From IMG/VR virus record IMGVR_UViG_2703718872_000005: 15,515 nucleotides of DNA; one strand, 5' to 3'. A program made the position numbers. This stretch comes from a virus. Lineage: Duplodnaviria > Heunggongvirae > Uroviricota > Caudoviricetes. The first letter of the stretch is position 1, and every line of letters begins with the position of its first letter. Shown here one piece after another: positions 1 through 3,000 of the stretch.

Positions 1-3000
1 TTATGCCAGAAAACAACAGGCACCCCGAAGGGTGCCTGTGTCATGACGGAATAAAATTTCTGAAATTCTTCACATTTCCGGCAATTGCCTGTAGCCACTA
101 TAATGACGCAGCGTTACAGTTTTTTTGCTCAATAAAAGCAATAATTATCAGACCTCCTTAAGGTGACTATTCGTCTCCCGTCAGTATCCGGCGATATTAC
201 GGGAGATTTTTTTGCTTCAGCCACACCACAACATCCTGCTCATTTACGCCACTGGTACCCTGGCGGTCATCCGTTCTGTAAACCTGCGACAGAAAAAGTC
301 TGAATTTCTTCACATTTTCTGTACGTTCCCGTGGCAGATATCATTCCGGGGCGTTACAGTTTTTTCGGGTCAATAAAAACAAAACTCCTTGAACGTTAAT
401 CTTCATCGGTTCTGTCCCGCAGTCTCCGGACTCTGCGGGATTTTTTTATCCCTTAACCCCGGCATGATGTTTTCTGTCTTCTGCCACAGATACCCGGCAA
501 GCTCCCTGCACCTCTGCAGCAAAAAATTTCTGAATTTCTTCACATTTTCGCAAAATCCATGTGGCGCTTATAATTTCGCTGCGTTAATGTTTTTCTGCCC
601 AAAAAAATAACTCCATAACGTTAATCTTCATCGTTATTTCCCGCAGCTCCGCTAACTCTGCGGGATTTTTTTTTATTTTTATCCCCGCCCGATAACCACC
701 ACTTTCCCGTCTCCGCCCTCATCACGGGTGCTGATATCCTGGGATATCCGTCGTGAACCAACCAGCATTTCACCGTAAGGCACCGGCATCGGGTTACCCT
801 GGGCAATCATGTTGTCCAGTGACGAAAAATACGTGTTCTGTTTACCGTTATCCGTACTTTTATACTCCGGCGTCTTTGCCTTCGGGGCCAGCATCTGAGC
901 CACACCACCCAGTATCATGCTGGCACCCAGTGAGAACAGCATCGTGGTGGCAGTCAGCCCTCCGGCACTCAGGGCTGCGCCCCATGCCGCCAGTGTTGCA
1001 CCACCAGTGAAAAATGACCCGACAATCGCTGCAACCCCCAGCACCACCTGAAAAACACCATTTCCCCGGCTCCGGCCAGTCGCGGCACAATGTGGATGAC
1101 CGCTCCCTCACCCAGTTGTTCGTGAAGACGGGCGTACACCGCCTCCGGTGCGGTATCCTCACCGGCAATACGTATCTGATACCAGCCTTCGTTCATCTGA
1201 CAGCGGAATCCCGGCACCTGCAGCGACAGGGCACGGATGGCCTCCGCTGCCGTGTTCACATACAGGCTGATGCGGCGACCAAATCGTTGTAAATCCCCGT
1301 GAAGGCAGATGCGGACCAGTGGCGGTGACGCCAGACAGAATGCGTTCGTCGTTGCCATTTTTCAGAATACCTCTCCCGTTTACTCAGTTGTTCAGGTATA
1401 TGGTGAAGCAGCTCACCGTTGCCACAGTAAATGGCGGCATGATTCGGCACCGATGCGCCAAAGCAGCACAGCAGGATATCGCCTGCCTGTGCACAGGACG
1501 GAGACACCCGGTAAAAGCCGTTGTCCGCCAGGTTGTCCAGGTACAGGTTCTGACCGTTGCGCCACCAGTCATCCTCACGCACAAAATCCGGCAGCGTTAT
1601 CCCCGCCAGATGGTATGCATCCCGGAACAGGGTGTAACAGTCCGTCACACCGTGTTCAAAGCGCCGTCCGGTCAGGTGCGGCACACAGCGGAACCGGTGA
1701 ATGTCACCCCGGCAGACCAGCCACCAGGGCAGGGCACTCTTTATCTGCAGCCGCCGGTCCGCCTCGCTCAGCCAGGGCAGTCCACCGGGATGACTGTGGA
1801 CCAGCGTCACAATCTCCCCCTGCATCTGTGCCTGCAGCCAGTCTTCCGGTGCAATACGAAAATACGCCTCCGGCTCTGCGGAGATATTCACGCAGGGCTG
1901 GTACCGTTCGCCCTCCGGGGTGCTTATCACGAAGCCGCACGACTCCGCTGGCGCACACCGCCGGGCATGCGCCAGAATCGCTGATTCAGTCTGTGTCANN
2001 NNNNNNNNNNNNNNNNNNNNNNNNNNNNNNNNNNNNNNNCAGCATGATGCGACCGGGAAACAGCGCCCCGTCCGTCTCCGTCGGTGTCGCCAGCACAAAC
2101 GAGGCCGTCATGGCCGTCAGCGATGACATCTGCTCCACCACCCACCGGTCCGTCAGCTCCTGCTCCGGGTCGGCCTCAGGATTGCCTGCCACAAAGTTCA
2201 CCGCATCCAGAAAACGCGCATACACCCGGCGACGGACCACCGTGGCACCCACCAGGCTCTGCAAATCCTCCGCCATCCCGGTGACCAGCCCGAAAAGATT
2301 GGACACTGTAAGCGACGGGCGGGCACTGCTGCCCTTTCCGTTCATCTCAAAGCCGCTGCCCTCAATCGGGTACGCCTGATATTCACGCCCCTGCCAGGTC
2401 ACTGGCTCCCCTTTTTCATTCAGCTCATTGCAGAAAAAATACCGCTCACCGCCCTGCACCGTCAGGTCGATTTCCCAGAGCACCACCCGCGGTGACTGCT
2501 CTGATTTAACCGACTCGTTCAGGCTTTCTTCGTGAATATCCTGCATCAGTTCACCACCTGCTTAAACTCCGCGCTGAACTCAACGCGCAACATCCCGACC
2601 CGCGCAGACCACCCGGCACAGGTCACCTTTATCTGCCGGTATGCATAGGGTGGCTTCCACAAAAATGCCTTCCAGCCCCCGTGCTCTGCCAGGAACGCTT
2701 CCAGATGCCGGGCCTCCTCCCGGGTCACGGAAAGCGTCACCCGGTATGTTTTCAGGTCAGCATTCAGCCCTGCCGCCATACGCTGTGAGTACCCGTCACC
2801 AAAACGCACTTCACGCACCGACGGCTGCGAGTTCACCTCCATATCCGGCTTCACTTTCCAGCGAAAGGTTTTCATCGCCCGCTCCCTGATAACATACCGC
2901 CATCACGCAACTGCAGCCGGAGNNNNNNNNNNNNNNNNNNNNNNNNNNNNNGCCTCCTTCGTGAAAACAAACTCCCCGCGGTGAACTATCCCCGCAGGCT

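What the first reader, a model, noticed from the sequence alone, without database searches (positions are those of the whole stretch)
57..680. Tandem array of three promoter / ~100-nt transcript / terminator modules where gene J should be
Three related units with a ~230-240 bp period each carry a conserved upstream box tttctgaa(a/t)ttcttcaca, a -10 element (TATAAT, TATCAT, TATAAT) at fixed distance, a conserved transcript 5' end gcgttaca(g)-T-run-caataaaa, and an 8-bp GC-rich stem plus 7-9 T terminator. Conservation is at the nucleotide and structure level, not in any reading frame, which points to small RNAs rather than peptides. Triplicated, independently terminated sRNA-like genes at a prophage tail-module boundary could be cargo (moron-like) regulatory RNAs, for example Hfq-dependent sRNAs or anti-sRNA sponges. 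I cannot match them to a known family from memory.
Basis: seen in the sequence. Interest (0 to 1): 0.85.

Follow-up and report, generated by a model that had tools for sequence, protein, structure and literature searches.

The report
Tandem PasB-family prophage small RNA genes
Three side-by-side genes for a known, experimentally validated kind of prophage small regulatory RNA (the PasB / EcOnc22 family) lie between two phage tail genes; the family is not new, and only the tandem stacking and one divergent copy appear undescribed.

Summary
There are three direct-repeat modules (period 240 and 230 bp). Each has an invariant upstream box, a -10 hexamer exactly 24 nt after the box, a GCGTTA/T-run start region, and a GC-rich hairpin followed by 7-9 T.

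The modules are homologues of PasB (EPEC E2348/69) and EcOnc22/23/24 (O157 Sakai). Both were detected by Northern blot and lose stability without Hfq. Both lie in the same place: the gap between tail genes I and J, antisense to the tail operon. An HMM trained only on single-copy loci hits the window exactly three times (E 2e-40, 2e-34, 4e-26).

Gene J is not missing. In the closest genomes its start lies about 36 nt left of the window.

Most phages carry one unit. Arrays of 2-4 units occur in about 1.5% of complete E. coli genomes and seem unreported.

The array is mosaic: unit 1's promoter and unit 3's RNA both match EcOnc22, while unit 1's RNA body was seen only in arrays.

The box resembles a CRP site; this is untested. 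The RNAs' targets are unknown.

Verdict: new members of a known kind, modest interest.

The parts
16..39 (-). Conserved GC-rich hairpin between the array and the J start. It looks like a terminator on the tail-operon (minus) strand. It is not part of the sRNA units.
   Evidence: 10-bp stem followed by TGTTTTCT on the minus strand. The left flank 1-43 recurs in 58 related loci. It is also present in the PasB and Sakai Sp15 loci.
57..77 (+). Unit 1 upstream box TTTCTGAAATTCTTCACATTT. The CRP-like core TCTGA-N6-TCACA lies at 59-74.
99..104 (+). Unit 1 -10 hexamer TATAAT. The -35 is weak (TTCCGG at 76-81).
111..213 (+). Unit 1 predicted sRNA (103 nt if it starts at G111; about 87 nt if it starts after the U-run). 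Features: GCGUUACAG and a U7 run; an (ARN)5 run at 131-145; ACCUCCUUAAGGUGA at 152-166 (ACCUCCUUA is anti-Shine-Dalgarno-like); terminator stem GUCUCCCGU/ACGGGAGAU at 173-207; U7 to 213. This divergent RNA body was seen only in arrays.
214..283 (+). Spacer 1, specific to arrays.
   Evidence: It matches only the loci with the same array (L001, L049).
297..317 (+). Unit 2 upstream box aGTCTGAATTTCTTCACATTT. The CRP-like core lies at 299-314.
339..344 (+). Unit 2 -10 hexamer TATCAT, with a poor -35.
351..447 (+). Unit 2 predicted sRNA (97 nt). Features: (ARN)4 run at 372-383; seed-like AACUCCUUGAACGUUAAUCUUCAUCGG at 383-409; terminator at 414-441; U7 to 447. It is 86% identical to a variant that is single-copy in other phages.
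448..513 (+). Spacer 2. Its first part resembles the 3' end of gene I (ATCCCTTAACCCCGGCATGAT compared with ATTTTTATCCCCGCCCGAT).
   Evidence: Repeat family D4, 77% identity. The spacer is shared with other arrays (L049, L059).
527..547 (+). Unit 3 upstream box TTTCTGAATTTCTTCACATTT. The CRP-like core lies at 529-544.
547..574 (+). Unit 3 sigma-70 promoter: TTCGCA, 16-nt spacer, TATAAT (10 of 12 consensus positions).
581..674 (+). Unit 3 predicted sRNA (94 nt). Its body and terminator are 91% identical to EcOnc22 of Sakai Sp15. Features: AAUAACUCCAUAACGUUAAUCUUCAUCGUU at 607-636; terminator at 639-665; U9 to 674. The terminator abuts the stop codon of gene I.
679..1260 (-). Tail assembly gene I, the right boundary of the array. 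In the window it carries a 1-nt deletion at about 1063.

Best explanation
Window 44-674 holds three separate genes for trans-acting, Hfq-binding, base-pairing small RNAs of the PasB / EcOnc22-24 family. They are stacked head to tail in the gap between tail genes I and J of a lambdoid (Stx-phage-like) prophage. They are transcribed antisense to the late tail operon, so they can be made from their own host-type promoters in a lysogen.

Each module has these parts, in order:
- An invariant upstream box. I infer it is the binding site of a dimeric activator. The best match is CRP: TcTGA-N6-TCACA.
- A sigma-70 -35/-10 pair.
- A conserved GCGUUA and U-run at or near the 5' end.
- An A-rich (ARN)n run. 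I infer this contacts the distal face of Hfq.
- A single-stranded, CU-rich seed: CUCC, which is anti-Shine-Dalgarno-like, plus UUAAUCUUC.
- A GC-rich hairpin with a U-tail, serving as terminator and as the proximal-face Hfq module.

Shown here: homology, position, orientation, and intact promoter and terminator signals in all three units.

Shown by others for homologues: expression, size, Hfq dependence, and many mRNA partners.

Inferred: that all three copies are expressed, that they repress or activate mRNAs through the seed, and that the box ties them to a common signal.

Units 2 and 3 share a 16-nt seed segment (ACGUUAAUCUUCAUCG), while unit 1 has a different body. The array therefore probably both raises dosage and widens the target range.

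The array arose by recombination between phages, not by recent duplication in place.
For: Family membership:
- An HMM built from 52 distinct single-copy units, with no window or array sequences, hits the window three times and nowhere else. The hits span the full model on the + strand: E 2.1e-40, 2.3e-34 and 4.3e-26.
- The PasB locus of E2348/69 and the VT1-Sakai I-J gap align with all three units from box to terminator.
- PasB coordinates (PMC8550237 Table S6) fall in the I-J gap, antisense to the tail genes.
- The EcOnc22 probe matches the Sp15 I-J unit, with 30 of 33 probe bases matching and two 1-nt gaps. It matches window unit 3 at 28 of 33.

Experimental data on homologues:
- PasB is about 100-fold lower in an hfq mutant (log2 fold change -6.8) and has 37 RIL-seq interactions.
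- EcOnc22 is about 85 nt and is destabilised without Hfq.

Context:
- The I 3' flank is present in 114 of 123 loci that carry the box.
- Among 78 I-J gaps chosen by the I protein: about 57 bp with no unit (28 gaps), about 240-345 bp with one unit (34), about 420 bp with two (3), about 715 bp with three (1), and 854 bp with sodC plus a partial unit (12).

RNA features:
- All three RNAs fold into a terminal hairpin with a U-tail and are otherwise largely unstructured.
- (ARN)3-5 runs lie at nt 21-35 of each RNA.
- Terminator stems are kept through compensatory changes: CCCGC/GCGGG becomes CCCGU/ACGGG or CCCAC/GUGGG.

Box:
- In 24 distinct units chosen without reference to the box, it is invariant except for two central positions. 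It is the most conserved part of the unit.
- The pattern TGTGA-N6-TCACA with at most one mismatch occurs in the window only at the three boxes, against 0.59 expected.
- PasB is higher in overnight static LB than in exponential DMEM. Spot 42, which CRP represses (established knowledge), shows the opposite pattern.

Mosaic origin:
- Each unit is closer to single-copy units elsewhere (75-86%) than to its neighbours in the array (66-76%).
- Unit 1's promoter is 90.5% identical to the EcOnc22-type promoter, and unit 3's RNA is 91% identical to the EcOnc22 RNA.
Against: - No expression data exist for this array, or for unit-1-type and unit-2-type RNAs.
- Unit 2 has a weaker -10 (TATCAT) and no recognisable -35. 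Unit 1 also lacks a good -35.
- Related two-unit arrays carry a first unit whose -10 and GCGTTA have decayed. Array members can therefore become pseudogenes.
- No mRNA target of any family member has been validated. A 2021 review lists the EcOnc22 target as unknown, and the PasB function is described as 'not elucidated'.
- Structural covariation is minimal, because the terminator stem is nearly invariant.
- The CRP reading is weak on geometry. The site is centred at about -44.5 from the start directed by TATAAT, not at the canonical -41.5. It reaches about -60, close to the class I position, only if the real 5' end is the one reported for PasB after the U-run.
- The two growth conditions also differ in growth phase and aeration.
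Confidence: 0.85

Rival explanations
1. The RNAs act mainly in cis as antisense regulators of the tail operon. Each is perfectly complementary to the untranslated I-J spacer of the late mRNA. They could trigger RNase III cleavage or uncouple J from I expression, and more copies would give stronger control.
For: The whole array lies antisense to the late transcript between I and J. Lambda-type phages manage with a 57-bp gap, so the insert is an add-on placed directly before the host-range gene J. A hairpin that is terminator-like on the minus strand lies between the array and J.
Against: PasB forms Hfq-mediated chimeras with about 37 other RNAs from the core and accessory genome, which is the behaviour of a trans-acting sRNA. 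The most conserved RNA segments are a short seed and the Hfq module, whereas a cis-antisense role needs no conserved seed. The sRNAs overlap no ribosome-binding site or coding sequence of I or J.
Confidence: 0.15
2. Only one unit is a working gene, probably unit 3, the EcOnc22 orthologue. The others are recombination debris from exchanges between co-resident lambdoid prophages and are drifting towards pseudogenes.
For: The array is mosaic. Two-unit arrays have a first unit with a destroyed -10 and start region. Units 1 and 2 have weak -35 elements, and unit 2's -10 is TATCAT. No array appears among 50,697 deposited phage genomes.
Against: All three units keep the invariant box, the exact 24-nt spacing from box to -10, GCGTTA, the hairpin and the U-tail. 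An array only 87.6% identical (SCU-171, L125) keeps all of these in each unit. A differently ordered four-unit array keeps most of them, although the -10 and GCGTTA of its third unit have decayed. Unit 2's type is the sole copy in many other phages, so it is a functional type.
Confidence: 0.2
3. The region encodes small proteins: + strand ORFs at 3-161, 212-376 and 389-610.
For: The ORFs exist. ORF 212-376 stays open, without indels, in an array that is 87.6% identical.
Against: Two of the three ORFs are broken by stops or indels in the 87.6%-identical array. None has a Pfam match. Two start with TTG. All of them run across promoter boxes, -10 elements and terminators. The units differ from each other by indels that are not multiples of three. 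Single-unit loci do not contain the ORFs.
Confidence: 0.03
4. The RNAs are anti-sRNA sponges like AgvB and AsxR. They would titrate a core-genome sRNA rather than regulate mRNAs.
For: The prophage setting and Hfq dependence are the same as for AgvB and AsxR (PMC4104026). One PasB RIL-seq chimera involves the PasA region.
Against: There is no Rfam match to AgvB or AsxR, even at E<=10. The size differs (about 85-100 nt against 51-60 nt), and so does the position (the I-J gap, not the PR' moron site). PasB was classed as an sRNA because more than 67% of its partners are CDS or 5'UTR (Table S6 legend).
Confidence: 0.07

Closest known systems
PasB sRNA of EPEC E2348/69 (Pearl Mizrahi et al. 2021, PMC8550237; Zhu, Shabalina & Storz 2026 preprint, 10.64898/2026.05.13.724894)
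   Same: It lies in the same place (the I-J gap of a lambdoid prophage) and in the same orientation (antisense to the tail genes). It has the same box, -10, GCGTTA/U-run, CU-rich seed region and CCCGCAG/CUGCGGG terminator with U-tail.
   Different: The RNA parts are only 69-78% identical to PasB, and no shared exact word exceeds 15 nt. The published survey used word size 28 and more than 75% query coverage, so it would not count these units. PasB is described as single-copy per prophage, with copies at least 28 kb apart. Here three copies sit within 630 bp.
EcOnc22/23/24 of E. coli O157:H7 Sakai prophages Sp15, Sp14 and Sp11 (Tree et al. 2014, PMC4104026)
   Same: Unit 3's RNA body and terminator are 91% identical to the Sp15 (VT1-Sakai) unit, and unit 1's promoter is 90.5% identical to that type. 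The probe sequence matches. EcOnc22 is Hfq-bound, about 85 nt and destabilised in an hfq mutant.
   Different: In Sakai there is one unit per prophage (gap 240 bp). Table S6 of the 2021 paper lists EHEC homologues for PasA and PasD but none for PasB. The link between EcOnc22 and PasB is therefore made here.
AgvB and AsxR prophage anti-sRNAs (Rfam RF02702, RF02703)
   Same: They are prophage-borne, Hfq-dependent and occupy conserved positions in lambdoid prophages of pathogenic E. coli.
   Different: They are 51-60 nt long, lie at the PR' moron site and act as sponges. No covariance-model match was found here.
Tandem paralogous sRNA genes such as OmrA/OmrB (E. coli), PrrF1/PrrF2 (Pseudomonas) and LhrC1-5 (Listeria) (from my own knowledge)
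   Same: Adjacent, independently promoted and terminated paralogues have related promoters and partly shared, partly divergent seeds. The window's array works like these.
   Different: Those are chromosomal core genes under a defined regulator (OmpR, Fur, LisR). This array is phage cargo assembled from different phage lineages, and its regulator is unknown.
Class II Hfq-binding sRNAs (ChiX, MgrR, CyaR type: an ARN motif plus a U-tail) and CRP-activated sRNA promoters (CyaR, McaS) (from my own knowledge)
   Same: There is an (ARN)3-5 run upstream of the seed and a terminal U-tail, and a CRP-like palindrome upstream of the promoter.
   Different: Neither the Hfq face used nor CRP dependence has been tested for this family. 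The spacing of the CRP-like site is non-canonical for the TATAAT-directed start.

Membership tests
PasB / EcOnc22-24 prophage sRNA family | The gene lies in the intergenic gap between tail genes I and J of a lambdoid prophage, on the strand opposite the tail operon. | tested here: met
   Window: I lies at 679-1260 (minus), and gpJ starts about 36 nt left of the window in genomes that are 100% identical over window 1-720. The same holds for PasB and Sakai Sp15.
PasB / EcOnc22-24 prophage sRNA family | Full-length sequence homology of promoter plus RNA to validated members. | tested here: met
   An HMM built from single-copy units only gives three full-length hits: E 2e-40, 2e-34 and 4e-26. See also the alignment with the PasB and VT1-Sakai loci.
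PasB / EcOnc22-24 prophage sRNA family | Rho-independent terminator (GC-rich hairpin plus at least 6 U) preceded by a U-rich single-stranded stretch, forming the Hfq-binding module. | tested here: met
   Folds, stems, and U7, U7 and U9 tails.
PasB / EcOnc22-24 prophage sRNA family | A transcript of about 83-100 nt that is expressed and stabilised by Hfq. | not testable with these tools
   This is known only for homologues. No transcript data are available for this array.
PasB as operationally defined in the 2026 survey (blastn, word size 28, query coverage >75%) | A shared exact word of at least 28 nt with the 83-nt E2348/69 PasB. | tested here: not met
   The longest shared words are 9, 15 and 15 nt. 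The units are therefore divergent relatives, not 'PasB variants' in that sense.
Rfam sRNA families (AgvB RF02702, AsxR RF02703, Esr41, STnc100, IsrK and others) | A covariance-model score at or above the gathering threshold. | tested here: not met
   No match at the gathering threshold in the whole window. At E<=10 in 1-800 there were only chance-level hits, such as snoRNAs and terminator-only matches.
CRP-dependent promoter | A 16-bp core TGTGA-N6-TCACA. | tested here: met
   9 of 10 core positions match in all three units, and these are the only such sites in the window (0.59 expected). The half-sites are invariant and the centre is variable across 24 distinct units.
CRP-dependent promoter | The site is centred at -41.5 (class II) or at -61.5, -71.5 and so on (class I) relative to the start. 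| tested here: inconclusive
   The centre is about -44.5 from a start 7 nt after TATAAT, and about -59.5 from the 5' end reported for PasB from RNA-seq coverage. The true start site is not mapped.
CRP-dependent promoter | CRP-cAMP binds the site and is required for transcription. | not testable with these tools
   There is only an indirect hint: PasB is higher in overnight LB than in DMEM, the opposite of the CRP-repressed Spot 42.

The most novel reading that the evidence does not exclude
The I-J gap of lambdoid prophages may act as a recombinational cassette site. Complete sRNA modules (box, promoter, RNA, terminator) from different phage lineages would be stacked there into arrays of 2-4 genes. 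All modules would be driven through one invariant CRP-type box, so a lysogen would gain a battery of different seeds switched on together by the host's catabolite or stationary-phase signal. One module type, the unit 1 RNA with a 16S-like ACCUCCUUA anti-Shine-Dalgarno motif, would exist only in such arrays. The same slot also accepts sodC, which then uses the sRNA body as its 3' end.
Probability: 0.3. Interest if true: 0.5.

Novelty: new member of a known kind. Interest (0 to 1): 0.3.

Why it matters
The finding ties together two sRNAs that appear in the literature under different names: EcOnc22/23/24 in EHEC and PasB in EPEC. It shows that the family is broader than the published word-size-28 survey could detect. 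It also shows that some STEC prophages carry three or four divergent copies in tandem.

About 84 of 5,426 complete E. coli genomes hold at least 80% of this array or of the related four-unit array. If all copies are expressed, those strains differ from Sakai or E2348/69 in both the dosage and the seed repertoire of an abundant Hfq client. That could alter competition for Hfq and post-transcriptional control in Shiga-toxin-producing strains.

The invariant box gives a concrete, testable handle on how the family is regulated. None of this changes the general picture of prophage-encoded sRNAs.

Tried and rejected
- Rfam at gathering thresholds on the whole window, and at E<=10 on 1-800, gave nothing meaningful. 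The family has no Rfam model.
- RNAalifold on 30 family members gave only four pairs of the terminator stem. MAFFT misaligned the unit-1-type terminators. I therefore did not build a covariance model, and I make no claim of conserved structure beyond the terminator.
- A first box-conservation estimate came from loci fished out with the box pattern itself. I rejected it as circular and repeated it on loci selected by the I protein.
- The genome-contig scan with the I protein mostly returned lambda-type I-J gaps (57 bp), often in low-coverage contigs of unrelated taxa. These look like lambda contamination and said little about taxonomic range.
- Other readings of the box gave poorer matches by eye than CRP: LexA (CTG-N10-CAT rather than CAG), FNR (TTGAT-N4-ATCAA), sigma-E, sigma-32 and sigma-54 elements, and RcsB, OmpR and PhoP boxes. 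An UP element remains a possible alternative.
- Protein-coding potential of the three + strand ORFs was rejected.
- I did not attempt genome-wide target prediction, because no host genome is available to the scripting tool. I did not extract the PasB RIL-seq partner list.
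Full report
**1. The observation**

The window begins with three direct-repeat modules. The repeat finder reports a three-copy family at 44-124, 284-364 and 514-594, with spacing 240 and 230 bp and 69-73% identity to the reference copy. Further families cover the start region and the terminators. A three-way alignment gives 74% mean column identity.

The box TCTGAAnnnCTTCACATTT occurs exactly three times in the 15.5-kb window (59, 299, 529, all on the + strand), against 0.01 expected from shuffles.

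In every unit a -10-like hexamer starts exactly 24 nt after the box's TCACA: TATAAT at 99-104, TATCAT at 339-344, TATAAT at 569-574. GCGTTA follows 6 nt after the hexamer. A GC-rich hairpin with 7, 7 and 9 T closes each unit at 213, 447 and 674.

The description is therefore accurate, with two corrections:
- Structural conservation is limited to the terminator hairpin.
- The array does not replace gene J.

**2. Where it lies**

Window 1-720 is 100% identical to chromosomal prophages of human STEC isolates such as 2015C-3121 and STEC2018-553. In 2015C-3121 the tail genes run on the opposite strand. The tail assembly gene I corresponds to window 679-1260. An intact gpJ starts about 36 nt to the left of window position 1. 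The array therefore fills the I-J intergenic gap and is antisense to the late tail operon.

**3. What it is**

Rfam has no match, but the literature does.

*PasB.* PasB is an 83-nt sRNA of EPEC E2348/69. It was validated by Northern blot, has 37 RIL-seq interactions, and is about 100-fold lower in an hfq mutant (PMC8550237). It maps to NC_011601.1 1466343..1466261 on the minus strand. That position is inside the 240-bp I-J gap of prophage PP6, antisense to the tail genes. The whole PasB locus aligns with each of the three units: box TTCTGAATATCTTCACA, TATAAT, GCGTTAGTG plus a T-run, a CU-rich middle, and the CCCGCAG...CTGCGGG hairpin with a T-run.

*EcOnc22.* The I-J gap of VT1-Sakai (Sp15 of O157 Sakai) holds one such unit. 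Tree et al. 2014 list EcOnc22 (Sp15), EcOnc23 (Sp14) and EcOnc24 (Sp11) as homologous Hfq-CRAC peaks. EcOnc22 is about 85 nt on Northern blot and is destabilised without Hfq. The reverse complement of their EcOnc22/23/24 probe matches the Sp15 I-J unit, with 23 consecutive matching bases and 30 of 33 probe bases overall. It also matches window unit 3.

Table S6 of the PasB paper lists EHEC homologues for PasA and PasD but none for PasB. The equivalence of PasB and EcOnc22-24 as one family is therefore a small result of this analysis.

*Clean membership test.* I built an HMM from 52 distinct single-copy units, leaving out the window and all arrays. It hits the window three times, full length, on the + strand: E 2e-40 for unit 3, 2e-34 for unit 2 and 4e-26 for unit 1. 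It hits nowhere else.

**4. How common units and arrays are**

I sampled I-J gaps through the I protein, not through the box. The gap sizes and contents were as follows:

| Gap length | Content | Number of loci |
|---|---|---|
| about 57 bp | no unit (lambda type) | 28 |
| about 240-260 bp | one unit | 32 |
| about 345 bp | one unit | 2 |
| about 420 bp | two units | 3 |
| about 715 bp | three units | 1 |
| 854 bp | a Cu/Zn superoxide dismutase gene plus a promoterless partial unit | 12 |

Four-unit arrays also exist (L059, and L124 from NZ_CP027462).

Among 5,426 complete E. coli genomes:
- 729 have a megablast match to the region.
- 84 hold at least 80% of the three-unit query. About 20 of these match at 95% identity or more; most of the rest are the four-unit arrays matching at about 79%.
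- 67 hold at least 80% of the four-unit array.

No array appears among 50,697 deposited phage genomes; there the gap holds a single unit.

The 2026 survey of Pas sRNAs used blastn with word size 28 and more than 75% query coverage. It reports that pasB copies on one chromosome are at least 28 kb apart. The window's units share no exact word longer than 15 nt with the 83-nt PasB, and their RNA parts are 69-78% identical to it. That survey would have missed them. I found no report of tandem arrays.

**5. Origin of the array**

The units are 66-76% identical to each other. Each is closer to a single-copy unit in another phage, at 75-86%.
- Unit 1's promoter half is 90.5% identical to the EcOnc22-type promoter.
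- Unit 3's RNA half is 91% identical to the EcOnc22 RNA.
- Unit 2 is 86% identical to a type that is the sole unit in many contigs.
- Unit 1's RNA body has a different terminator stem (GUCUCCCGU/ACGGGAGAU). In this sample it was found only in arrays.

The simplest reading is that an EcOnc22-type single unit was split by about 470 bp of foreign modules. The recombination would have occurred at the short invariant segments: the box, GCGTTA and the T-run.

Spacer 2 begins with a degraded copy of the 3' end of gene I (family D4). The transferred modules therefore once lay next to an I gene.

**6. Anatomy and likely mechanism**

The predicted RNAs are 103, 97 and 94 nt if they start at G111, G351 and G581. 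Apart from the terminal hairpin they are largely unstructured. Folding z-scores are -3.0, -1.5 and -2.8 and are driven by the terminator.

The shared layout is:
- GCGUUAnnG and a U-run.
- An (ARN)3-5 run at nt 21-35.
- A CU-rich stretch. In most members this is AAYUCCUUA followed by the nearly invariant UUAAUCUUC. Unit 1 has ACCUCCUUAAGGUGA instead.
- A U-rich spacer.
- The hairpin and U-tail.

This is the layout of an Hfq-dependent base-pairing sRNA. The U-tail and hairpin would bind the proximal face of Hfq, the ARN run the distal face, and the single-stranded seed carries an anti-Shine-Dalgarno-like CUCC. This assignment rests on established knowledge of Hfq sRNAs and is an inference here.

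The experimental record for homologues fits this. PasB behaves as the sRNA partner in RIL-seq chimeras with CDS and 5'UTR regions of core and accessory genes. No target has been validated.

Units 2 and 3 share ACGUUAAUCUUCAUCG but differ in the CUCC-proximal part. Unit 1 differs throughout. The array probably adds both dosage and new specificities.

**7. The box**

I examined 24 distinct units selected without reference to the box. In them TTCTGAA-nn-TCTTCACATTT is invariant except for the two central positions. It is more conserved than the -10 or the RNA.

The box reads TcTGA-N6-TCACA, a 9-of-10 match to the CRP core with a perfect right half including the TTT flank. It is the only such site type in the window (3 found, 0.59 expected).

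PasB is higher in overnight static LB than in exponential DMEM. Spot 42, which CRP represses, shows the reverse. This is suggestive only, because the conditions also differ in growth phase and aeration.

The geometry is ambiguous. The site is centred at about -44.5 from the TATAAT-directed start. It is centred at about -59.5 from the 5' end reported for PasB from RNA-seq coverage, which lies after the U-run.

The conserved GCGTTAnnGT itself fits TAnnnT and could be a second -10 that directs that downstream start. Mapping the 5' end would settle this. An UP element or an unknown regulator remain alternatives.

**8. Rival explanations**

- *Cis-antisense control of the I-J mRNA.* This is possible as an additional role, but it does not explain the conserved seed or the trans partners.
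- *Partial pseudogenisation.* This is a real possibility. Two-unit arrays show a decayed first unit, and unit 2's promoter is weak. Against it, all three window units keep every signal. An array only 87.6% identical also keeps them in each unit. The four-unit array keeps them in three of its four units.
- *Small ORFs.* These cross promoters and terminators. Two of the three break in a related array, and none has a Pfam match.
- *Anti-sRNA sponges of the AgvB/AsxR type.* These differ in size, position and sequence.

**9. Verdict**

It belongs to a family that is already described and experimentally validated, although that family is missing from Rfam.

New here:
- The PasB = EcOnc22-24 link.
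- The divergent members.
- The 2-4-unit tandem arrays and their mosaic origin.
- The invariant CRP-like box.

Novelty: new members of a known kind. Interest: modest.

Noticed in passing
L175 (I-J gap of 854 bp), and 11 other loci such as L178, L182 and L195: A Cu/Zn superoxide dismutase gene (Pfam Sod_Cu, E 4e-32) sits in the I-J gap in the sRNA orientation. It replaces the box and promoter of the sRNA unit. The remaining sRNA body and terminator form the 3' end of the sodC transcript, so this may be a 3'UTR-derived sRNA.
   Followed up: partly
window 1063 (within gene I, 679-1260, minus strand): There is a 1-nt deletion in a C5 run relative to NZ_CP027340. It frameshifts the tail assembly gene I and splits it into ORFs 679-1047 and 969-1358. 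This is either a defective prophage or a homopolymer sequencing error.
   Followed up: partly
window 16-39 (minus strand): A conserved 10-bp GC-rich hairpin is followed by TGTTTTCT on the tail-operon strand. It lies between the sRNA array and the J start codon and recurs in 58 related loci, including the PasB and Sakai Sp15 loci. It could be a terminator or stabiliser upstream of J; its role is unknown.
   Followed up: no
L001 20919-22073 (NZ_CP027340 prophage): An ompC-like porin gene is inserted inside the tail operon, between the L and M homologues, in the closest sequenced relative. The window diverges from that genome at this point and lacks the insertion.
   Followed up: no
L005, L022, L063, L083 (two-unit arrays, box spacing 179 bp): The first unit keeps the box and a unit-1-type body and terminator, but it has lost the -10 and GCGTTA. 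It is probably a pseudogenised module.
   Followed up: partly
window 111-119, 351-359, 581-589: The nearly invariant GCGTTAnnGT fits the TAnnnT pattern of a -10 hexamer, with a G at -14. It could direct a start after the U-run, which matches the 5' end reported for PasB. That would place the CRP-like box at about -60.
   Followed up: partly
Genome-contig loci L127-L142 and others: Lambda-type I-J regions, 69% identical in the I protein and with a 57-bp gap, occur in low-coverage contigs of unrelated taxa such as Streptomyces, Pseudomonas and Bradyrhizobium. They look like phage lambda contamination of those assemblies.
   Followed up: no
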